Position numbers and translations under genes: made by a program
Assembly (NCBI GenBank): GCA_965248825.1
Contig: CBDFKL010000006.1
Location: 1,025,893-1,089,892, forward strand
Direction of reading: 5' to 3'
From: Alphaproteobacteria bacterium
GTDB taxonomy: Bacteria; Pseudomonadota; Alphaproteobacteria; UBA828
Length of the DNA stretch: 64,000 nucleotides
Notes under the pieces: generated by a model
Told to the model about the DNA's origin: nothing
Databases searched by the model: none
The model's input: only the letters and a program-made list of their open reading frames with translations
Shown: positions 13,444 through 61,278 of the stretch, in pieces
Numbering within the stretch: position 1 is the stretch's first letter
How the letters are laid out: every line of letters starts with the position of its first letter

Positions 13444-14799
13444 ATGCGCGTCGCGATGATTGGCGCCGGCTATGTCGGTCTGGTGTCGGCCGCATGCTTC
13501 TCGGAGTTCGGTTTCACCGTGAGCTGCGTCGATGCGGCGCCGGAGCGGATCGCGGCCTTGCGGGCCGGGCGGATCCCGATCTACGAGCCGGGCCTGGATG
13601 CGCTGGTTGCCAGCAATGTGACGGCCGGGCGTCTCTCCTTCGCGACCGAAATCGCCGAGGCGGTGCCGTCGGCCGATGTGGTGATGCTGGCGGTCGGCAC
13701 GCCGAGCCGGCGCGGCGACGCTCATGCCGACCTTTCCTTTGTTCACGAAGCCGCCCGCCAGGTTGCCGATACGCTCGACGGCTACACCGTGGTCGCGACC
13801 AAATCGACGGTGCCCGTCGGCACCGGCCGCGAGATCGCCCGGATCATCCGAGAGCGGCGGCCCGATGCCGCGTTCGACCTCGTCTCGAACCCGGAGTTCC
13901 TCCGCGAAGGCTCGGCGATCGGCGATTTCATGCGCCCGGACCGGATCGTCGTCGGGGTCGAATCGGCGCGGGCGCAGGCCGTCATGCAGGCACTCTACAG
14001 GCCGCTTTTCCTGATCGAGACGCCGGTGCTGTTCACCACGCTCGAGACGGCGGAGCTCACCAAATACGCCTCCAACTGCTTTCTCGCGACCAAGATCACG
14101 TTCATCAACGAAATCGCGGATATCTGCGAGCAAGTCGGTGCCGACGTCCAGGACATCGCGAAGGGGATCGGCCTCGATGGCCGCATCGGGCGGCACTTTC
14201 TGCATGCGGGGCCGGGTTTCGGCGGTTCCTGCTTTCCGAAGGATGCCGCGGCCTTTGTCCGTATCGCCGAGGACGCCGGCACGCCGAGCCGGATCGTTGA
14301 AACCGTCCTGCGGAGCAATGCCGAGCGCAAGGCCAAGATGGCCGACAAGATCGTGTACGCCTGCGGCGGTACGGTCGCGGGCAAGACCATCGCGGCGCTC
14401 GGTGTCACCTTCAAGCCAAACACCGACGATGTGCGGGAAAGCCCGAGCCTCGTGATCCTGCCCGGCCTGACGGAGCGGGGCGCGACCGTGCGCGCATTCG
14501 ATCCGGCGGGCATGGACGAGGCGCGGAGCAAGCTCGACGGCGTCATCTGGTGCCGCGACGCCTACGATGCGATGACAGGCGCCGATGCGCTGGTCATCCT
14601 CACGGAATGGAACGAGTTCAGGGCGCTCGATCTGAGCCGCGTCAAAGACCTCGTGAAAACGCCGCTGATCGTCGATCTCCGCAATATCTACGCGCCGCAC
14701 GAAGTGGTCGAAGCCGGCTTTTGCTATGTGAGCGTCGGGCGGCCGACGGCGCGGCCGTCGGCGGGCGCCAGCCATCTGCGCACCGCCAGCTCGGCATGA
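13444..14799 (+). CDS. ugd: UDP-glucose 6-dehydrogenase
   Basis: MRVAMIGAGYVGLVSAACF Rossmann N-terminus, catalytic GFGGSCFPKD. AAGGAG ribosome-binding site upstream. Stop overlaps the next start (ATGA). Confidence 0.9.
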   Translation: MRVAMIGAGYVGLVSAACFSEFGFTVSCVDAAPERIAALRAGRIPIYEPGLDALVASNVTAGRLSFATEIAEAVPSADVVMLAVGTPSRRGDAHADLSFVHEAARQVADTLDGYTVVATKSTVPVGTGREIARIIRERRPDAAFDLVSNPEFLREGSAIGDFMRPDRIVVGVESARAQAVMQALYRPLFLIETPVLFTTLETAELTKYASNCFLATKITFINEIADICEQVGADVQDIAKGIGLDGRIGRHFLHAGPGFGGSCFPKDAAAFVRIAEDAGTPSRIVETVLRSNAERKAKMADKIVYACGGTVAGKTIAALGVTFKPNTDDVRESPSLVILPGLTERGATVRAFDPAGMDEARSKLDGVIWCRDAYDAMTGADALVILTEWNEFRALDLSRVKDLVKTPLIVDLRNIYAPHEVVEAGFCYVSVGRPTARPSAGASHLRTASSA

Positions 14800-16190
14800 G
14801 CGTTGGCCGCGTGCTCGACTCGACGATCCTCGGCGAATACGACATCAGGGGGATCGTCGGTGAGACTCTCTCCGAAGCCGACATGGGCGCGATCGGCAGA
14901 GGCTTCGCCACCATCGCACGGCAGAGGGCGCCGGCCGGCCGCCGGCCGCCGATCTGTGTCGGTCGCGACGGCCGGCTGACCTCTGCGGCCCTCGAGGCAC
15001 GCCTGGTCGAAGGCCTGTGCGCCGGCGGCGCGGAGGTGATCCGGATCGGGGTCGGCCCGACGCCGATGCTTTACTTCGCCGTCCATGAGCGGCGGAGCGA
15101 CGGCGGGATGATGGTCACGGGCTCGCACAATCCGCCGCAATATAACGGCGTCAAGATGATGCTCGGCGGACGGCCGTTCTATGGCGCGGACATCGTCGAG
15201 CTGGCACGGATCGTCGCCGCCGGGGCGCTCGCGGAAGGCGCAGGCCCCGCGACGGAGGTCGACCTCGCCGCCGACTATGTCGCGCGCCTGCTGTGCGAGG
15301 CCGGCGAGGGCGACCTCAAGGTGGCATGGGATGCCGGCAACGGCGCCGCCGGCGCGGTGCTCGAAGCGCTCGCCGACGGCCTTCCGGGGCGCCACCTGCT
15401 GCTGAATGCTGCGATAGACGGGACCTTTCCCGCCCATCATCCGGACCCGACGGTGCCCGACAACCTGGTCCAGTTGATCGATACGGTGCGGGCCGAGGGC
15501 TGCGACCTCGGGATCGCCTTCGATGGCGACGGCGATCGCATCGGGGTCGTGGACCAGGATGGAGAGATCCTCTGGGGCGATCAGATCCTGGCCCTGTTGG
15601 CCCGCGAGGTACTGCGCGACCGGCCAGGCGCGACAATTATCGCCGACGTCAAGGCAAGCCAGGTTCTATTCGACGAGATCGCGCGCCTGGGCGGCAAGCC
15701 GCTGATGTGGATCACCGGCCACTCGGTGATCAAGGCGAAGATGGCCGAGCTCGGCGCGCCGCTCGCCGGCGAGATGAGCGGTCATATTTTCTTCGCCGAC
15801 CGCTATTACGGCTTCGACGATGCGCTCTATGCCGGCGTTCGCCTGCTGCGGCTGATCGAAAGCGAGGGGCGCTCACTTGCCGCCCTGAGGGCCGAACTCC
15901 CGCGCCGGGTCAGCACGCCCGAGATCCGCTTCGCGTGTCCGAACGAACGCAAGTTCGCGGTTGTCGATGAGGTCCGCGCCCGTCTCGAGGCCGCAGCCGA
16001 GCCGTTCAACGGCATTGACGGGGTCAGGGTCCAGACCGAGGATGGCGGCTGGTGGCTGCTCCGCGCGTCGAACACCCAGCCCGTGCTGGTGGCGCGCTGC
16101 GAGGCAGAGGACGCCGGTGCCCTGGCGCGCCTGAAACGCAGTTTGACGGCGCAGCTTCGGGCGAGCGGCGTGGAGCCGCCCGACTTCTGA
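14796..16190 (+). CDS. Phosphomannomutase/phosphoglucomutase (AlgC/PMM-PGM family)
   Basis: Start ATG overlapping the ugd stop (GCATGA). Motifs TGSHNPPQYNGVKM (active-site Ser loop), FDGDGDRIGVVD (metal-binding), GEMSGHIFF. Confidence 0.85.
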   Translation: MSVGRVLDSTILGEYDIRGIVGETLSEADMGAIGRGFATIARQRAPAGRRPPICVGRDGRLTSAALEARLVEGLCAGGAEVIRIGVGPTPMLYFAVHERRSDGGMMVTGSHNPPQYNGVKMMLGGRPFYGADIVELARIVAAGALAEGAGPATEVDLAADYVARLLCEAGEGDLKVAWDAGNGAAGAVLEALADGLPGRHLLLNAAIDGTFPAHHPDPTVPDNLVQLIDTVRAEGCDLGIAFDGDGDRIGVVDQDGEILWGDQILALLAREVLRDRPGATIIADVKASQVLFDEIARLGGKPLMWITGHSVIKAKMAELGAPLAGEMSGHIFFADRYYGFDDALYAGVRLLRLIESEGRSLAALRAELPRRVSTPEIRFACPNERKFAVVDEVRARLEAAAEPFNGIDGVRVQTEDGGWWLLRASNTQPVLVARCEAEDAGALARLKRSLTAQLRASGVEPPDF

Positions 16191-16197
16191 GACCCAG

Positions 16198-16222
16198 CGC
16201 CCGCCATGGCAGGGCCTATTTT
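16198..16222 (+). terminator. Putative intrinsic terminator after pgm (GCCC...GGGC stem followed by CTATTTTCG)
   Basis: Short GC stem plus T-run 8 nt after the TGA stop, at the entrance to an unusually AT-rich 150-nt island. Confidence 0.3.
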
Positions 16223-16346
16223 CGATAAATGTTCTAAATCAAATGCTTCCAACTTCCTTTTTACCTCTTTGTTTCGCTTGACGAGCGAACCCTCTTTGAT
16301 TCATAACAAAGGGTAATCCGATTCGACCCTGCCATCGAGGCGGACG

Positions 16347-17675
16347 TTGCGGACAACGCAGAGAACACATTGCATCCGGTCGGGCCCGGCCATTCTCGGG
16401 CTCGTTCTTTTCCTCTGCATACTTATCGGCGTCCAGACCCTCGCCGCGCAGCAGGCGCACGCGGGATACGCCTCGATCATCGTCGACGCCGAGACCGGCG
16501 AGGTCCTGCGGTCGCGCAACGCCGACACGCGGAACTATCCGGCCTCGCTGACCAAGCTCATGACTCTCTATCTGCTCTTCGAAGCTGTCGAAGAGGGCCG
16601 GCTCGGTCTCGACACGAAGCTCAAGGTCTCGAAACGGGCGGCCCGACAACCGCCGTCACGGCTCGGTCTGCGTGCCGGCTCGACCATCCGCGTGAAGGAG
16701 GCGATCAACGCGTTGGTCGTCAAGTCGGCCAATGACGTCGCCGTGGTGGTCGCCGAGGCCTTGAGCGGCACGGAGAGACGGTTCGGCGCGCTGATGACCC
16801 GCAAGGCCCGCGCCCTCGGCATGTCCCGAACCACCTTTCGCAATGCATCCGGTCTGCCGAACCGGGCGCAACGGAGCACAGCGCGGGACATGGCGCGACT
16901 CGCCCGCGCCCTGATCCACATTTTCCCCCACCGCTATCACTATTTCGGCGACAAGCGCTATCGCTATTCGGGGACGCTGCACCGCACGCATAACCAGCTG
17001 ATCGGCAGTTATCGCGGCGTCGACGGCATGAAGACCGGCTATATCCGAGCCTCCGGCTTCAACCTCGTGGCGTCGGCCAAGCGCAACGGCAGGCGCATCA
17101 TCGCGGTGGTGCTCGGCGGCAAGACGTCGCGCTCGCGAAACGCTCATATGGTCACGCTCCTCGACATGGGCTTCAAGCGGCTTGTCGCACGCCATGCCAA
17201 GCGTGGCCGCACCCTCTTTGCCGAGATTCCGCAACCGGCGTTCAGGAGCGACTCGGCCGCGCCGGGACCGAGGTTCAAGCCCGCCCCGGTCAGGCTCGCC
17301 CAGGCCCCGAACGCGGCCGAGGTGGCCGCGATCCCCAAACCGGTCAAGACCGCTGCGGTCACCGCGGCGGCGGCCACGGCCGAACGCGCCGCCGGCCGCC
17401 CGTGGAGCATCCAGGTGGGCGCCTATGCGTCGGTCACGGCAGCCGAGATCGCCATCCGCCGTGCCACCGTGCGGAGCCGGCTCCTGGACGGTGTGGCATC
17501 CACTCTGGCGCGCCACGAGGCGCGCCAAGGCACCCTCTATCGGGTCCGCTTCATCGGGCTTTACCGGAGCGACGCCAACCAAGCCTGCCGAGCGGTTCGC
17601 ACCGCCACGATGCCATGCGTCGTGATCCACAACCGTGACATAGGCACCGATCTCGGAGCGCGCGCACGCTCCTGA
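16347..17675 (+). CDS. D-alanyl-D-alanine carboxypeptidase (S11, PBP5/6-like) with C-terminal SPOR domain
   Basis: SxxK (PASLTKLMT), SxN (KSANDVA) and KTG motifs. N-terminal signal-like segment. C-terminal about 80 aa (WSIQVGAYASVTAAEIAIRRATV...LYRVRFIGLYRSDANQACRAVR) looks like a SPOR peptidoglycan-binding domain. Confidence 0.8.
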   Translation: MRTTQRTHCIRSGPAILGLVLFLCILIGVQTLAAQQAHAGYASIIVDAETGEVLRSRNADTRNYPASLTKLMTLYLLFEAVEEGRLGLDTKLKVSKRAARQPPSRLGLRAGSTIRVKEAINALVVKSANDVAVVVAEALSGTERRFGALMTRKARALGMSRTTFRNASGLPNRAQRSTARDMARLARALIHIFPHRYHYFGDKRYRYSGTLHRTHNQLIGSYRGVDGMKTGYIRASGFNLVASAKRNGRRIIAVVLGGKTSRSRNAHMVTLLDMGFKRLVARHAKRGRTLFAEIPQPAFRSDSAAPGPRFKPAPVRLAQAPNAAEVAAIPKPVKTAAVTAAAATAERAAGRPWSIQVGAYASVTAAEIAIRRATVRSRLLDGVASTLARHEARQGTLYRVRFIGLYRSDANQACRAVRTATMPCVVIHNRDIGTDLGARARS

Positions 17676-56483: not shown

Positions 56484-57698
56484 TCAGGCGAATGCCTGGA
56501 TGCCGGTTTGGGCCCGGCCCAGGATCAACGCATGGACGTCGTGCGTGCCTTCATAGGTGTTGACCGCTTCGAGATTCATGACGTGGCGGATCACGTGATA
56601 CTCGTCGCTGATCCCGTTGCCGCCATGCATGTCGCGGGCCATGCGGGCGATCTCGATCGCCTTGCCGCATGAGTTGCGCTTGATCAGCGAGATCATCTCG
56701 GGCATCGCGCGCCCCTCATCGAAGAGCCGGCCGACGCGGATGCTGGCTTGCAGGCCGATCGCAATCTCGGTCTGCATATCGGCGAGCTTCTTCTGGATGA
56801 GCTGGTTGGCCGCGAGCGGCTTGCCGAACTGCTTGCGCTCGAGCGTGTAGTCACGGGCGGCGCGCCAGCAGAACTCCGCGGCGCCGAGCGCCCCCCAGGC
56901 GATGCCGAAGCGCGCCCGGTTGAGGCACCGGAACGGGCCCGAGAGCCCGCTCGCACCGGGAAGCTCGTTTTCCGCCGGCACGAACACCTCGTCCATCTGA
57001 ATCATCCCGGTCACCGAGGCGCGCAGTGAGAATTTGCCCGCGATCTTGGGCGCGGCGAGGCCCTTCATCCCCCTTTCGAGCAGGTAGCCGCGGATCGTGC
57101 CCTGGTCGTTTTTTGCCCACACCACGAAGACATCGGCGATCGGAGAATTGGTAATCCAATTCTTCGCGCCGGAAACCAGAAAGCCGCCATCGACCGACCG
57201 CGCCCGGGTCACCATGCCGCCCGGGTCGGACCCGAAGTCGGGCTCGGTCAGGCCGAAGCAACCGATCGCCTCGCCGGTCGCGAGGCGGGGCAGCCAGCTC
57301 TTCTTCTGCGCCTCGGTGCCGTAAGCCTCGATCGGATACATCACGAGGCTCGACTGGACGCTCATCGCCGAGCGATAGCCGGAATCGACCGCCTCCACCT
57401 CCCGCGCGGCGAGGCCATAAGAGACATAGTTGACACCGGCGCAGCCATAGCCCTGGATGGTCGAGCCCAACAGGCCGAGCGCGCCCATTTCGTTCATGAT
57501 CTCGCGGTCGAAGCGCTCGTGCCGATTCGCCTCGAGAATGCGCGGCATCAGCTTCTCTTGGGCATAGCCGCGCGCCGTGTCCCGCACCAACCGCTCGTCC
57601 TCGCCGAGCTGATCGTCGAGCAGGAACGGGTCGTCCCACTGGAAGGTCGGCTGCGCATGGTGAGACGCGGCCTTGGCGGCCGCCGCGGTTTGGCTCAT
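56484..57698 (-). CDS. gcdH: Glutaryl-CoA dehydrogenase-like acyl-CoA dehydrogenase
   Basis: 404 aa acyl-CoA dehydrogenase with a GcdH-like pattern ([28 protein letters not shown]...[50 protein letters not shown]. .[26 protein letters not shown]). GGGAGGG ribosome-binding site before the ATG. Confidence 0.85.
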
Positions 57699-57799
57699 GA
57701 TTCCCTCCCGGACGACGCGCTGTTCTAGCATTCGGGCCGGAGAGCACCAAGCCCGCGCCGGCTCGGCCATGATTCTGCGATCTCCGAGAGGCTCTGCCG

Positions 57800-58741
57800 A
57801 TGTCCGCCGATCCGCGCCCTGCCCGGAAACCCGGGACCGCCGCCGGCACCAGCCCGGTCACGCTCGGGATGCTGTTCGTCCTCGGCGTTTCCTTTGCGCT
57901 CGCCGTTTCGCTCAACCGGTTCGCGACGACCAGCGGCGTTCCGTTCGCACCTTATGTGTTTTGGCAATCGCTCGGCGGGGGCGCCGCGCTGCTGATCATG
58001 GCGGCTGCGCTTCGCCGCCTGCCGCCATTCGATTTCCCGCATGTTCGCGTCTATCTTTCCGCCGGCGCGTTGAATCTCGCCTTTCCCTACATGCTGCTTG
58101 CCTACCTCGCGCCCAAGGTGCCCGCGAGCCTGCTTTCGCTCGGCCTGTCGCTGGTCCCGGTCATGATCTATGCGCTGGCGCTGGCGCTCCGACTCGACCG
58201 GTTCCACCCGTTCCGTTTCGGCGGGATCCTGCTCGGGCTCGCCGGCATTCTCCTGGTGCTGGTGCCTCGGGCGAGTCTTCCGGCGCCGGGCATGGCCGGC
58301 TGGGTGGCGCTCGGCTTGTTGCCCTCGCTCTCCTACGCGGTCAACGCGGTGCTGGTCGCGCGGTGGCGGCCGCGGGAGACGACGTCACTGCCGCTCGCCG
58401 CGGGCCTCATGCTCGCCTCCGCGGCTTACGTCCTCCTGGTGATGGCCGCGACCGGGGACTGGTGGGCCTTCGGCGGCGCGTTCGGGGTCGGCCATGGGGC
58501 GACGATCGGCGCCATGGCCAACAACTGCGTCTCCTTCTACTTGGTCTTCGAGATCATTCGCCGCGCCGGCCCGGTGATTTTCTCGACCGTCAACTACATC
58601 GCCACGCTCTCCGGCATGGGCTTCGGCATCTGGTTCTTCAGCGACGCGCCATCGGCGTGGATCTGGGGCGCGGTCGTGCTGATGTTCGCCGGCCTCTTTC
58701 TGGTAACCGTGACCGGCCGCGGCCGCGGCGCGGCGGATTAG
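57800..58741 (+). CDS. EamA/DMT-superfamily transporter
   Basis: 313 aa, about 10 TM helices in two EamA-like halves. Confidence 0.75.
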
Positions 58742-58832: not shown

Positions 58833-59279
58833 TTACTTGACGCTGCGTTTGCGCCGCCGAACCTTCGTCCGCTTCTGGCCGAGGCCGATCTTCTTCGCGA
58901 ACTCGGACCGTCGCTTGGCGTAGCTGGGCGCGACCATCGGATAGTCGGGATCCAGTCCCCACTTCGCCCGATACTCGTCCGGCGTCATCCCGTAGGCCGT
59001 GCGCAAATGCCGCTTCAGCATTTTCAGTTTTCGGCCGTCCTCGAGGCAAATGACAAAGTCGGGCGTGACCGACTTCTTGATCGGAACGGCCGGCTTCAAC
59101 GGCTTGGCGGCTGCCGCGGTGCCGTCCTGTGCTTGCCTCAGAGAGGCATGGACGTTGCGAATGACCTCCGAAAGATCCGATGGGGCCACCGTATTATTGC
59201 CCACATAGGCGGTCACGACGTCTGCAGCCATTCGCAGGAGATCCTGGTCCTGGCTGGGATTCTGAGTCTGATCGTTCAT
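58833..59279 (-). CDS. mucR: MucR/Ros family transcriptional regulator (variant zinc finger: CLEDG instead of CLECG)
   Basis: Collinear with Ros/MucR (LLRMAADVVTAYVGNNTVAPSDL...VHASL...KPAVPIKKSVTPDFVICLEDGRKLKMLKRHLRTAYGMTPDEYRAKWGLDPDYPMVAPSYAKRRSEFAKKIGLGQKR). The second zinc-ligand Cys of Ros is replaced by Asp. Confidence 0.85.
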   Translation of the reverse strand: MNDQTQNPSQDQDLLRMAADVVTAYVGNNTVAPSDLSEVIRNVHASLRQAQDGTAAAAKPLKPAVPIKKSVTPDFVICLEDGRKLKMLKRHLRTAYGMTPDEYRAKWGLDPDYPMVAPSYAKRRSEFAKKIGLGQKRTKVRRRKRSVK

Positions 59280-59502
59280 CTCACTTGTTTTACTGTCGTT
59301 GACTGGATTCTTGAGCAACAGATATATCGACGAAGTGAGAACAATTGTCAAACCTTAATCTTTATGCCGTCGACGTCGGAACTACCTTGCCGGATGACCG
59401 GCCGCATTCTGATCGCTGCGGTGCCGGTGTTTCCGGGTGTTGCCCCTCTCTCGACTGTCGGCGTATACATAACCGCCAACCGACCGCCGCCTCGACACGG
59501 GC

Positions 59503-59937
59503 ATGCCAGACGAGAGAATTGCGATCGCCTCCGATCACGCGGGCGTCCAACTCAAGGCGGTGCTGCGCGCCGATCTGGAGGCGGTCGGCCGCGAGGTCAT
59601 CGACCTCGGCACCAGCGACGACGGGCCCGTCGACTATCCCGACTATGCGCAGGAGCTGGCGTCGGCGATCGAAACCGGCCGGGCGGAACGGGGCATCTTG
59701 ATCTGTGGTAGCGGCATCGGCATGAGCATCGCCGTCAATCGTTGCCGCGCCGTGCGCGGCGCGCTCTGCCACGATGAGGAGACGGCCAGGCTGGCGCGGG
59801 CCCACAATGACGCGAACGTCATCGCCCTCGGCGCGCGTCTCATGTCGGAAGACACCGCGCGCAAATGTCTGAGGACGTTTCTGGACACGACCTTCCAAGG
59901 CGGCCGCCATAGCCGGCGTGTCGCCAAGCTCTCCTGA
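59503..59937 (+). CDS. rpiB: Ribose-5-phosphate isomerase B
   Basis: RIAIASDHAGVQLKAVL...ILICGSGIGMSIAVNR...ANVIALGARL, 144 aa. Confidence 0.9.
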   Translation: MPDERIAIASDHAGVQLKAVLRADLEAVGREVIDLGTSDDGPVDYPDYAQELASAIETGRAERGILICGSGIGMSIAVNRCRAVRGALCHDEETARLARAHNDANVIALGARLMSEDTARKCLRTFLDTTFQGGRHSRRVAKLS

Positions 59938-59967
59938 AACGAACGGCAACAGAGGAACCGACCGGCC

Positions 59968-61278
59968 ATGGCTGTCTCACCGCTCGCTGAGTACGAGCCG
60001 GCAAACCCGTTCTTCTCGTGCTCGTTGCGGGACGCCGATCCGGCGGTGCACGCGGCGGTCGCCGGCGAGGTCGAGCGCCTGCAAACGACAATCGAGTTGA
60101 TCGCGTCCGAAAACATCGTGAGCCGGGCGGTGCTTGAGGCCCAAGGCTCGGTGCTCACCAACAAGTACGCCGAAGGCTATCCGGGACGGCGTTACTACGG
60201 CGGCTGCGACAACGTCGATGTCGGCGAGAGCCTCGCGATCGAGCGCGCGACGACCCTTTTCGGCTGTGGTTTCGCGAACGTGCAGCCCCATTCCGGGGCG
60301 CAAGCCAATCAGGCGGCGTTTCTTGCCTCGATCGAACCCGGTGACGTGTTCCTCGGAATGTCGCTCGCCGCGGGCGGACACCTGACCCATGGCGCCAAGC
60401 CGAACCTTTCGGGGAAATGGTTCAAGGCGGTTCAATATGGCGTCCGCAACGAGGATGCGCGGATCGATTTCGACGAGGTCGCCGCCCTCGCGGAGACGGA
60501 AAAGCCGAAGCTGATCCTGGCGGGCGGCTCGGCCTATCCGCGAATCATCGACTTCCGGCGCTTTCGCGAGATTGCCGACGCGGTGGGCGCGCTGTTCATG
60601 GTCGATATGGCCCATTTCGCGGGCTTGGTTGCGGCCGGGGTCTATCCGAGCCCCTTCCCCCATGCCCACATCGTCACGACGACCACTCACAAGACCCTGC
60701 GCGGCCCCCGCGGCGGCATGATCCTGACCGATGACGAGGGGTTGGCGAAACGGGTCGATACGGCCGTGTTCCCCGGGCTCCAAGGCGGGCCGCTGGAACA
60801 CGTCATCGCCGCCAAGGCGGTCGCGCTCGGCGAAGCGATGACGCCCGCGTTCAAGGACTATGCCGCGCGCGTCGTGGAGAATGCCAAAGTGTTGGCGCAA
60901 ACCCTGGCAGCCCGCGGCTACGACATCGTCTCGGGCGGGACGGACACTCATCTTCTGCTCGTCGATCTGCGCTCCAAAGGGCTGACCGGCAAGCGTGCCG
61001 AAGCCGTTCTGGAGAAGGCCGGGATCACCTGCAACAAGAACGGCGTGCCCTTCGATCCCGAGAAGCCTTGGGTGACATCCGGCATCAGGCTGGGCTCGCC
61101 GGCGGCCACCAGTCGCGGCTTCGGCCCGGCCGAATTCCGGCAGATCGCCGGCTGGATCGCCGATCTGCTCGATCGTGAGGTGCGCGAGCCGGCCGCAAGT
61201 GACGGCCTGGCGCTCGACGTGCGGGATGAAGTTCGGGCGCTGTGCAGCGCCTTTCCGGTCTATCCGGGCCAAGCCTGA
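59968..61278 (+). CDS. glyA: Serine hydroxymethyltransferase
   Basis: [39 protein letters not shown]...[14 protein letters not shown] (PLP lysine). Confidence 0.95.

What the first reader, a model, noticed from the sequence alone, without database searches (positions are those of the whole stretch)
58833..59500. MucR/Ros regulator with Cys-to-Asp zinc-finger substitution behind an AT-rich promoter island; the gene is noticeably less GC-rich than its surroundings
The Ros zinc-finger core CLECGxxFKSLKRH...H reads ICLEDGRKLKMLKRHLRTAY here, so the second Cys ligand is Asp. Homologues with altered coordination spheres are known to retain a MucR-type fold with altered or absent zinc. This gives a clear structural prediction. 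The 224-nt region upstream (59280-59500) has the lowest GC content in the window, and MucR-family proteins bind AT-rich DNA and autoregulate. Together these suggest an autoregulated H-NS-like silencer.
Basis: partly seen in the sequence, partly recalled or inferred. Interest (0 to 1): 0.5.

Follow-up and report, generated by a model that had tools for sequence, protein, structure and literature searches.

The report
Ordinary chromosomal MucR regulator gene
This is a normal, vertically inherited copy of the MucR/Ros DNA-silencing regulator of alphaproteobacteria; its unusual-looking metal site (Cys-Asp-His plus Tyr) and its AT-rich promoter are shared by nearly all its relatives, so it is a typical family member.

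Summary
The gene is real. It lies at 58833..59279 on the minus strand and encodes 148 aa. It gives a full-length Pfam ROS_MUCR match (E 3.7e-50) and matches the Ros87 structure 2JSP (E 3e-27).

The Cys-to-Asp change is real (GAC, two bases away from TGC) and invariant in the homologues examined. Both histidines that can act as fourth zinc ligand are absent (Ala95, Tyr96), so the site reads C78-D81-H91-Y96.

This pattern is not rare:
- It occurs in 73 of 75 loci found in species-representative genomes.
- It is the commonest type among the 150 nearest cluster representatives.
- It was described biochemically in 2026 for S. meliloti MucR2/MucR3, which bind zinc.

Unlike those two plasmid-borne proteins, this one keeps the classical oligomerisation residues. 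It also sits in a conserved chromosomal arrangement, glyA-rpiB divergent from mucR.

The AT-rich island is real (37% GC at 59266-59365, z about -5.7). It ties with 16217-16316 rather than being the unique minimum, and the outer half of the quoted region is GC-rich. The island holds a deeply conserved TTGACA promoter.

The lower gene GC is a family trait, not a sign of horizontal transfer. Autoregulation and silencing are plausible by analogy but untested here.

The parts
58833..59279 (-). mucR coding sequence: 148 aa plus TAA stop, starting at ATG 59279
   Evidence: ORF listing and sequence. Pfam ROS_MUCR E 3.7e-50 covering profile positions 1-123 of 123. Orthologues share the N-terminus MxDQTxNP..DLLRM.
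59112..59279 (-). N-terminal oligomerisation domain (residues 1-56), a two-helix hairpin carrying V22, Y25, V26, L36, V39, I40 and V43
   Evidence: AF2 predicts helices 8-28 and 33-51 with pLDDT about 82. The V..YV-(9)-L..[LV]I spacing matches the residues shown to drive oligomerisation in Brucella MucR and Ml5 (PMC11662661 and PMC6250670). V22 is invariant; Y25, V26 and I40 are nearly invariant.
58836..59111 (-). Linker plus C-terminal DNA-binding domain (residues 57-148), homologous to Ros87
   Evidence: phmmer against PDB chain 2JSP_A: E 3.1e-27, query residues 59-138 aligned to chain residues 5-84.
58992..59048 (-). Metal-site segment C78-L-E-D81-...-H91-L-R-T-A95-Y96. Ligand positions read Cys, Asp, His, then no His at +4 or +5 (Ala, Tyr).
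   Evidence: Alignment to Ros87 C24/C27/H37/H41/H42. Alignment with S. meliloti MucR2 C101/D104/H114/K118/Y119 (PMC13297338). C78, D81 and H91 are invariant in 76 homologues.
59037..59039 (-). Asp81 codon GAC, which differs from the Cys codons TGC/TGT at two bases
   Evidence: Read directly from the sequence.
58836..58874 (-). Basic C-terminal tail K136-RTKVRRRKRSVK148 with RxxxR spacing (R137/R141/R145). It corresponds to basic region 5 of S. fredii MucR1.
   Evidence: Sequence. Roles of the basic regions are taken from PMC12560781; the correspondence is by alignment only.
59346..59351 (-). -35 hexamer TTGACA of the mucR promoter
   Evidence: Conserved in the window and in L001-L006 and L012. 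TTGAC is present in 70 of 74 orthologous loci, mostly at a fixed 64-72 nt from the ATG, against 9.4% of control 150-nt windows.
59324..59329 (-). -10 region CGATAT (within TCGATATATC), 16 nt after TTGACA. The transcription start is inferred at about 59317.
   Evidence: Sequence. The orthologue consensus is TTGACA-N14-TGCaAttat. The generic scanner did not report this site, so the assignment is an inference.
59239..59388 (.). AT-rich island (44% GC; the core 59266-59365 is 37%). It spans the upstream A/T stretch, the promoter, the roughly 38-nt leader and the first ~13 codons. It has four A/T runs of 5 or more bases with T-A steps, at 59288-92, 59322-27, 59355-59 and 59361-65.
   Evidence: In 52 of 68 orthologous loci the lowest-GC 100-nt window of about 6.4 kb lies at the 5' end of mucR.
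59503..61278 (+). Divergently transcribed rpiB (59503..59937) and glyA (59968..61278), which are conserved neighbours of mucR
   Evidence: Pfam LacAB_rpiB and SHMT matches. GlyA is found next to mucR in 63 of 80 related loci and RpiB in 47.

Best explanation
This is the resident, vertically inherited chromosomal mucR gene of an uncultured-type alphaproteobacterium; its nearest relatives are Rhodospirillales-like MAGs.

The protein has three parts:
- an N-terminal two-helix oligomerisation domain;
- an Ala-rich flexible linker;
- a Ros-type DNA-binding domain whose metal site is Cys78-Asp81-His91, followed by a conserved aromatic residue (Tyr96) where Ros has its fourth His.

By analogy with characterised relatives, it most likely binds one structural zinc ion through Cys, Asp and His. 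The fourth position would be filled by the Tyr hydroxyl or by water. It would then oligomerise through the N-terminal domain, bind the minor groove of AT-rich DNA with T-A steps, and act as an H-NS-like silencer.

The gene is transcribed from a strongly conserved sigma-70-type promoter (TTGACA, then a -10 region about 16-18 nt later) set inside the AT-rich island. That island offers four T-A-step sites overlapping the -35 and -10 elements and the leader. The protein probably represses its own promoter, as Ros, Brucella MucR and Sinorhizobium MucR do.

Shown here: family membership, ligand pattern, conservation, synteny and promoter conservation. Inferred: zinc binding, oligomerisation, DNA specificity and autoregulation.
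For: - Family: Pfam ROS_MUCR full length, E 3.7e-50. Ros87/2JSP match at E 3e-27.
- Ligand pattern: C/D/H/A/Y. C78, D81 and H91 are invariant in 76 homologues. C-D-H..Y occurs in 73 of 75 species loci. Among the 150 nearest 50%-identity representatives, 101 are C-D-H, and of these 74 have Tyr, 13 Phe and 14 His at +5.
- Zinc: S. meliloti MucR2, which has the same C-D-H-x-Y pattern, binds zinc through its single His (PMC13297338).
- Oligomerisation: residues V22, Y25, V26, L36, V39, I40 and V43 are present (PMC11662661, PMC6250670). AF2 predicts N-terminal helices with pLDDT about 82.
- Basic DNA-binding residues R90, R104, R123/R124 and the tail RRRKR are present.
- Vertical descent: synteny of glyA-rpiB divergent from mucR, then acyl-CoA dehydrogenase. 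GC3 of codons 41-148 is 0.82, like the neighbouring genes.
- Promoter: TTGAC in 70 of 74 loci, mostly at a fixed distance.
- AT-rich island: conserved in orthologues. T-A-step sites are spaced about 30-35 bp apart, like the Brucella mucR promoter sites (PMC5881533).
Against: - No experiment bears on this protein.
- AF2 gave only low confidence for the DNA-binding domain (pLDDT 57-63), and Foldseek did not recover 2JSP. The fold therefore rests on sequence homology.
- The only characterised proteins with this ligand pattern, MucR2 and MucR3, do not bridge DNA (PMC13297338).
- Phe replaces Tyr96 in about 13% of related representatives. The Tyr hydroxyl therefore cannot be a universal fourth ligand.
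- The AT-richness of the island could be explained entirely by promoter, UP-element and translation-initiation needs.
- Arg69 of S. fredii MucR1 (basic region 2) is Lys here.
Confidence: 0.75

Rival explanations
1. The domain is zinc-free, like M. loti Ml4 and Ml5. With only three canonical-type ligands left, the fold would be held by hydrogen bonds and an enlarged hydrophobic core, with Tyr96 acting as a packing residue.
For: No His is present at +4 or +5. Phe substitutes for the Tyr in 13 of 101 C-D-H representatives, which suggests an aromatic packing role. Zinc-free family members exist (PMC9779718).
Against: The zinc-free Ml5 has lost the first Cys to Ser (PMC11662661). Here Cys78, Asp81 and His91 are invariant across 76 homologues, which points to selection on a metal site. 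MucR2, with the same pattern, binds zinc through its His (PMC13297338).
Confidence: 0.15
2. The AT-rich island is only a strong housekeeping promoter, made of an upstream A/T element, consensus -35 and -10 elements, an unstructured leader and AT-rich first codons for translation start. MucR would not act on it.
For: A consensus TTGACA sits at a mostly fixed distance in 70 of 74 loci, with an A/T stretch just upstream. No Shine-Dalgarno sequence precedes the ATG, and GC3 is low (0.65) in the first 40 codons, consistent with selection for an open initiation region.
Against: Self-repression is reported for every MucR/Ros tested for it (PMC7710501, PMC5881533). The T-A-step runs overlap the -35 and -10 elements and the leader, which are typical places for a silencer to act. 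The two readings are not mutually exclusive.
Confidence: 0.3
3. The protein is an atypical MucR that does not bridge DNA and works as a simple site-specific transcription factor, like S. meliloti MucR2 and MucR3, which share its ligand pattern.
For: It has the same C-D-H-x-Y site as MucR2/MucR3.
Against: MucR2/MucR3 carry Thr where classical MucRs have Val or Ile, and the window protein has Val43 there. It has no N-terminal extension. It is chromosomal and syntenic rather than plasmid-borne. All hydrophobic oligomerisation positions are kept.
Confidence: 0.12
4. The gene is a recent horizontal acquisition, which would explain its lower GC, or the Asp codon is a sequencing error.
For: The gene is 6 GC points below the window mean.
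Against: GC3 of codons 41-148 is 0.82, like the neighbours at 0.81-0.87. Orthologues are below their flanks in 66 of 68 species. Synteny is conserved across many genera. GAC to TGC needs two substitutions. Asp is present in all 75 scored loci, and an identical protein is on record independently.
Confidence: 0.02

Closest known systems
S. meliloti MucR2 (SMa1705, O33682) and MucR3 (SMa0748, Q92ZQ1), described in PMC13297338 (2026)
   Same: Same metal-site pattern: Cys, Asp and His, with no His at +4 or +5 and a Tyr at +5. There is a single His in the DNA-binding domain. The surrounding sequence is similar (SVT.DF..CLEDG.K.K.LKRHL.T.YGMTPD.YR.KW), as shown.
   Different: - The window protein has Ala95 where MucR2 has Lys118, which the authors propose shields the zinc.
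- It keeps Val43 where MucR2/MucR3 have Thr.
- It lacks the 20-residue N-terminal extension.
- It is chromosomal and syntenic, not plasmid-borne.
- It is only 43% identical to MucR2 overall.
Brucella abortus MucR and M. loti Ml1-Ml3 (CysAspHis2, zinc-bound)
   Same: Asp at the second ligand position. Same N-terminal hydrophobic pattern (V22, Y25, V26, L36, L/V39, I40). Tyr at +5 (Brucella has His97 then Tyr98). An AT-rich own promoter with T-A-step sites.
   Different: Brucella MucR has His97 (+4) as its fourth ligand; the window protein has Ala95 there.
A. tumefaciens Ros (Ros87 structure 2JSP)
   Same: The DNA-binding domain aligns over 80 residues at E 3e-27. The YPMVAP, W and LKRH core residues are conserved.
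   Different: Ros uses Cys2His2. Here the second ligand is Asp and the fourth is absent or Tyr.
M. loti Ml4 and Ml5 (zinc-free)
   Same: Same family and fold class, with a departure from Cys2His2.
   Different: Ml5 has lost the first Cys to Ser (PMC11662661). The window protein keeps Cys, Asp and His, and all three are invariant in its clade.
H-NS, Lsr2, MvaT and Rok xenogeneic silencers
   Same: Same working logic is inferred: oligomerisation domain, flexible linker, and an AT-rich minor-groove binding domain, with an AT-rich own promoter.
   Different: No sequence or fold relationship. The functional analogy comes from the MucR literature (PMC9410896, PMC11662661) and is not tested here.

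Membership tests
Ros/MucR family (Pfam PF05443) | Full-length match to the family profile above the curated cut-off | tested here: met
   169.5 bits against a cut-off of 25.4, covering profile positions 1-123 of 123.
Ros/MucR family (Pfam PF05443) | C-terminal domain homologous to the solved Ros87 prokaryotic zinc-finger domain | tested here: met
   phmmer against 2JSP_A, E 3.1e-27 over 80 residues. The structure-based check failed for lack of a confident model.
Ros/MucR family (Pfam PF05443) | N-terminal two-helix domain with the hydrophobic residues needed for higher-order oligomers (Brucella L36, L39, I40 and V22, Y25, V26) | tested here: met
   V22, Y25, V26, L36, V39 and I40 are present with the same spacing. 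AF2 predicts helices 8-28 and 33-51 with pLDDT about 82. Oligomerisation itself cannot be tested here.
Canonical Cys2His2 Ros type | Cys, Cys, His, His at the four ligand positions | tested here: not met
   The positions read C78, D81, H91 and Y96, with A95 at +4.
CysAspHis2 type (Ml1-Ml3, Brucella MucR) | Cys, Asp and His, plus a His at +4 or +5 as fourth ligand | tested here: not met
   The first three ligands are present, but there is no His at +4 or +5, and H91 is the only His in the domain.
Cys-Asp-His-(Tyr) type (S. meliloti MucR2/MucR3, 2026) | Cys, Asp and His, with Tyr at +5 and no fourth His | tested here: met
   Direct alignment with MucR2 read from pSymA.
Atypical non-bridging MucR2/MucR3 subgroup | Thr replacing the conserved Val/Ile of helix 2; N-terminal extension (MucR2); plasmid location | tested here: not met
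   Val43 is retained and there is no extension. The chromosomal housekeeping neighbourhood is conserved in 47-63 of 80 loci.
Zinc-free Ml4/Ml5 type | Loss of the first Cys (Ser in Ml5) and of further ligands | tested here: not met
   Cys78 is present and invariant. Actual zinc content cannot be tested.
H-NS-like xenogeneic silencer (functional class) | Binds AT-rich DNA with T-A steps, bridges DNA and represses its targets, including its own gene | not testable with these tools
   Only indirect support: the own promoter is the joint lowest-GC spot of the 64-kb window and has four T-A-step A/T runs. This is conserved in orthologues.

The most novel reading that the evidence does not exclude
In most chromosomal MucR proteins outside the Rhizobiales, this one included, the metal site may have only three protein ligands (Cys-Asp-His). 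The conserved aromatic residue at +5 (Tyr, but Phe in about one in eight related clusters) would pack against the site rather than bind the metal, leaving water or nothing as the fourth ligand. If so, the textbook Cys2His2 prokaryotic zinc finger of Ros is the exception. The 'peculiar' sphere just reported for the plasmid-borne MucR2/MucR3 would be the family's commonest state, and fully compatible with classical oligomerising silencers.
Probability: 0.35. Interest if true: 0.45.

Novelty: new member of a known kind. Interest (0 to 1): 0.22.

Why it matters
For this window it matters little. The gene can be annotated as mucR, with its start corrected to ATG 59279, and the Asp is neither an error nor a rarity.

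For the MucR field there is a modest point. The Cys-Asp-His-x-Tyr site, published in 2026 as a new coordination sphere of two atypical plasmid-borne proteins, is the dominant pattern in the syntenic chromosomal mucR of Rhodospirillales-like, Caulobacterales and other alphaproteobacteria. There it occurs together with an intact oligomerisation signature. That separates the metal-site variant from the non-bridging phenotype. The Tyr/Phe alternation gives a simple test of whether the Tyr really coordinates zinc.

The deeply conserved promoter, with TTGACA mostly 64-72 nt from the ATG, offers a ready-made system for testing autoregulation.

Tried and rejected
- **Structure prediction.** AF2 was run on the full-length protein (45-sequence alignment) and on the DNA-binding domain alone (76 sequences). 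Mean pLDDT was 63 and 57, and the Cys/Asp knuckle region was below 50. Foldseek against the PDB returned nothing with E below 1 and did not find 2JSP. No structural conclusion was drawn. The tool gives no coordinates, so ligand geometry could not be measured.
- **Source organism.** The look-up of encoding contigs had no record for the identical protein P0001. The listing of cluster members gave no accession or name.
- **RNA elements.** Rfam found no RNA family anywhere in the window, so there is no riboswitch or sRNA in the mucR-rpiB spacer.
- **Promoter scanner.** The generic scanner did not report the mucR promoter. The promoter was assigned from cross-species conservation instead.
- **Literature gap.** The 2009 PNAS paper that classified about 300 Ros homologues (PMC2678482) is not held. 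Its content is cited only through later papers.
- **Caulobacter Y97.** The MucR1 loss-of-function alleles Y97C and Y97H (PMC4083442) could not be mapped onto Tyr96 or Tyr103 without the Caulobacter sequence. They are not used as evidence.
- **Rejected readings.**
  - Horizontal-transfer origin is rejected.
  - Sequencing error is rejected.
  - The 172-aa ORF from TTG 59351 is rejected.
  - A paralogue elsewhere in the window is rejected because tblastn finds only the self hit.

Full report
**1. What is in the sequence**

The minus strand carries an ORF ending at TAA 58833-58835. The longest reading starts at TTG 59351 and gives 172 aa. The real start is ATG 59279, giving 148 aa. Dozens of orthologues begin with the same MxDQTxNP..DLLRM peptide. 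The TTG at 59351 is the first triplet of a conserved TTGACA promoter hexamer.

The 148-aa protein matches Pfam ROS_MUCR over the whole profile (E 3.7e-50, 169.5 bits against a cut-off of 25.4). Residues 59-138 align to the solved Ros87 domain 2JSP at E 3.1e-27. No second copy exists in the window.

An identical protein is on record in public data. It is annotated from Met17 (132 aa), which looks like a start mis-call.

**2. The metal site**

In the alignment to Ros87, the ligands C24, C27, H37 and H42 correspond to C78, D81, H91 and Y96. The alternative ligand H41 corresponds to A95.

The codon is GAC at 59039-59037, two substitutions away from TGC or TGT. H91 is the only His in the DNA-binding domain.

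The literature gives this context:
- Ros is Cys2His2.
- Ml1-Ml3 and Brucella MucR are CysAspHis2 and bind zinc. In Brucella the ligands are C80, D83, H93 and H97, followed by Y98.
- Ml4 and Ml5 are zinc-free, and Ml5 has lost the first Cys (PMC9779718; PMC11662661).
- "Most" Ros homologues have Asp at position two, and the fourth His "is not always conserved" (PMC12948726).
- In May 2026, S. meliloti MucR2 and MucR3 were reported with exactly Cys-Asp-His and no fourth His (Lys-Tyr at +4/+5). Zinc binding through the single His was shown by NMR. A Tyr ligand was proposed from an AlphaFold3 model (PMC13297338).

I read MucR2 from pSymA and aligned it. The window protein shares the C-D-H-x-Y pattern, with Ala instead of Lys at +4.

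**3. How common the pattern is**

Three samples were examined:
- **Species-representative genomes.** A scan returned 80 related loci. Of the 75 in which the motif could be scored, 73 read C-D-H..Y and 2 read C-D-H..F. The +4 residue is Thr in 60, Ala in 8, Lys in 2 and His in 1. The genera include Magnetospirillum, Nisaea, Thalassospira, Skermanella, Terasakiella, Phaeovibrio, Brevundimonas and a Caulobacterales MAG. The scan's seed peptides included DFVICLED, so Asp is favoured by construction. The +5 position was not seeded.
- **Cluster representatives.** Of the 150 nearest 50%-identity representatives (from 7,579 family hits), 101 are C-D-H. Of these, 74 have Tyr, 13 Phe and 14 His at +5. 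Only 24 have a His at +4 or +5. Canonical C-C-H..H appears five times.
- **Aligned homologues.** C78, D81 and H91 are invariant in 76 aligned sequences.

The pattern is therefore a clade-wide, selected state and not a curiosity of this gene. The Phe alternatives show that the hydroxyl at +5 cannot be a universal ligand.

**4. Which kind of MucR it is**

The oligomerisation determinants known from Brucella MucR and Ml5 are V22/Y25/V26 in helix 1 and L36/L39/I40 in helix 2 (PMC6250670, PMC11662661). They are present here as V22, Y25, V26, L36, V39 and I40, with identical spacing, and are invariant or nearly so in the clade.

MucR2 and MucR3 owe their atypical behaviour partly to a Thr replacing a conserved Val or Ile. 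That position is Val43 here.

AF2 predicts the two N-terminal helices (8-28 and 33-51) at pLDDT about 82.

The basic residues important for DNA binding in S. fredii MucR1 have counterparts: R90, R104, R123/R124 and an RxxxR-containing tail at 137-145. Arg69 of basic region 2 is Lys here.

The protein thus looks like a classical oligomerising MucR that carries the "MucR2-type" metal site.

**5. Genomic setting and GC**

The neighbours are as follows:
- rpiB (59503..59937, +) and glyA (59968..61278, +) lie upstream of mucR and are transcribed divergently from it.
- An EamA transporter gene (57800..58741, +) lies downstream of mucR.
- An acyl-CoA dehydrogenase gene (56484..57770, -) lies further downstream.

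GlyA lies next to mucR in 63 of the 80 related loci, RpiB in 47 and the dehydrogenase in 24. This is an old chromosomal arrangement.

The gene is 61% GC against 67% for the window. However, GC3 of codons 41-148 is 0.82, like the neighbours at 0.81-0.87. The deficit lies in codon positions 1 and 2, which reflects a Lys/Asp/Asn/Tyr-rich protein, and in the first 40 codons. Orthologues are below their flanks in 66 of 68 species, by 4.7 points on average. Horizontal transfer is therefore rejected.

**6. The AT-rich island and the promoter**

The 100-nt window 59266-59365 is 37% GC, against a window mean of 67.1% and sd of 5.3%. It is the second lowest after 16217-16316 at 35%. For 150- and 221-nt windows the two islands tie.

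The island is a conserved property of the gene:
- Over 74 loci, the 150 nt upstream of mucR average 46.8% GC against 64.1% for the whole locus.
- In 52 of 68 loci the lowest-GC 100 nt of about 6.4 kb sits at the mucR 5' end, where about 4% would be expected by position alone.

Inside the island lie TTGACA (59351-59346) and, 16 nt later, CGATAT (59329-59324). TTGAC occurs in the upstream 150 nt of 70 of 74 loci, against 9.4% of control windows. In nearly all of them it lies 64-72 nt from the ATG; here the distance is 72 nt. The cross-species consensus is atTTt..a-TTGACA-N14-TGCaAttat.

From this I infer a sigma-70-type promoter, a transcription start near 59317 and a leader of about 38 nt. No Shine-Dalgarno sequence precedes the ATG.

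Four A/T runs of 5 or more bases with T-A steps lie at 59288-92, 59322-27, 59355-59 and 59361-65. Together with the 16.2-kb island, this is the highest density of such runs in the window. Brucella MucR binds three such sites, spaced 30-50 bp apart, in its own promoter (PMC5881533). Self-repression is general in the family (PMC7710501).

Autoregulation is therefore a reasonable inference. The same AT-richness is also what a strong promoter with an open leader would need.

**7. Verdict**

The gene is a typical member of a known family, and its metal-site variant is already in the literature (the Asp since 2009, the missing fourth His since 2026).

The modest added value is threefold:
- This variant dominates in syntenic chromosomal mucR genes.
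- It coexists with the classical oligomerisation signature.
- It alternates with Phe at +5.

Dead ends are listed under Tried and rejected. The conclusions on the N-terminal domain rest on the residue numbers in the cited papers and on MucR2, not on that sequence.

Noticed in passing
window 16217-16316 (island about 16190-16347): This is the lowest-GC 100 nt of the window (35%). It lies between a phosphogluco/phosphomannomutase gene (14550..16190, +) and a D-Ala-D-Ala carboxypeptidase gene with a SPOR domain (16347..17675, +). It has four A/T runs with T-A steps and a TTGAC, making it the best other candidate MucR site in the window.
   Followed up: partly
window 59231-59279; protein P0001: The identical protein in public data is annotated from Met17 (132 aa). 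Orthologue conservation of the first 16 residues shows that the start is ATG 59279. Several relatives (P0044-P0047) have the same start mis-call.
   Followed up: yes
proteins P0123, P0127, P0133, P0136, P0148, P0156 and others: About 25 of the 150 nearest cluster representatives have Tyr in place of the third ligand His (CLEDG..LKRYL..[YF]). They therefore have no His at all in the site.
   Followed up: no
proteins P0122 (418 aa), P0125, P0134, P0177, P0208: Some family members carry two to four MucR-like repeats in one polypeptide.
   Followed up: no
loci L005-L080, compared with window 59280-61278: The divergent glyA-rpiB / mucR arrangement is conserved across many alphaproteobacterial genera (63 and 47 of 80 loci). 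The four closest MAGs (L001-L004) have a different upstream gene but keep the same promoter.
   Followed up: partly
window 58836-58874, compared with P0003-P0043: The window protein ends in a basic tail (KRTKVRRRKRSVK). Its closest relatives (75-82% identity) instead carry an acidic C-terminal extension of about 25 residues, rich in Ser and Gly.
   Followed up: no
window 59280-59295: No Shine-Dalgarno sequence precedes the mucR ATG (…aaaacaagtgagATG). The leader is A-rich, and the first 40 codons have low GC3 (0.65).
   Followed up: no
window 1-64000: No Rfam family reaches its gathering score anywhere in the 64 kb, so no tRNA-like, riboswitch or sRNA match was found.
   Followed up: yes
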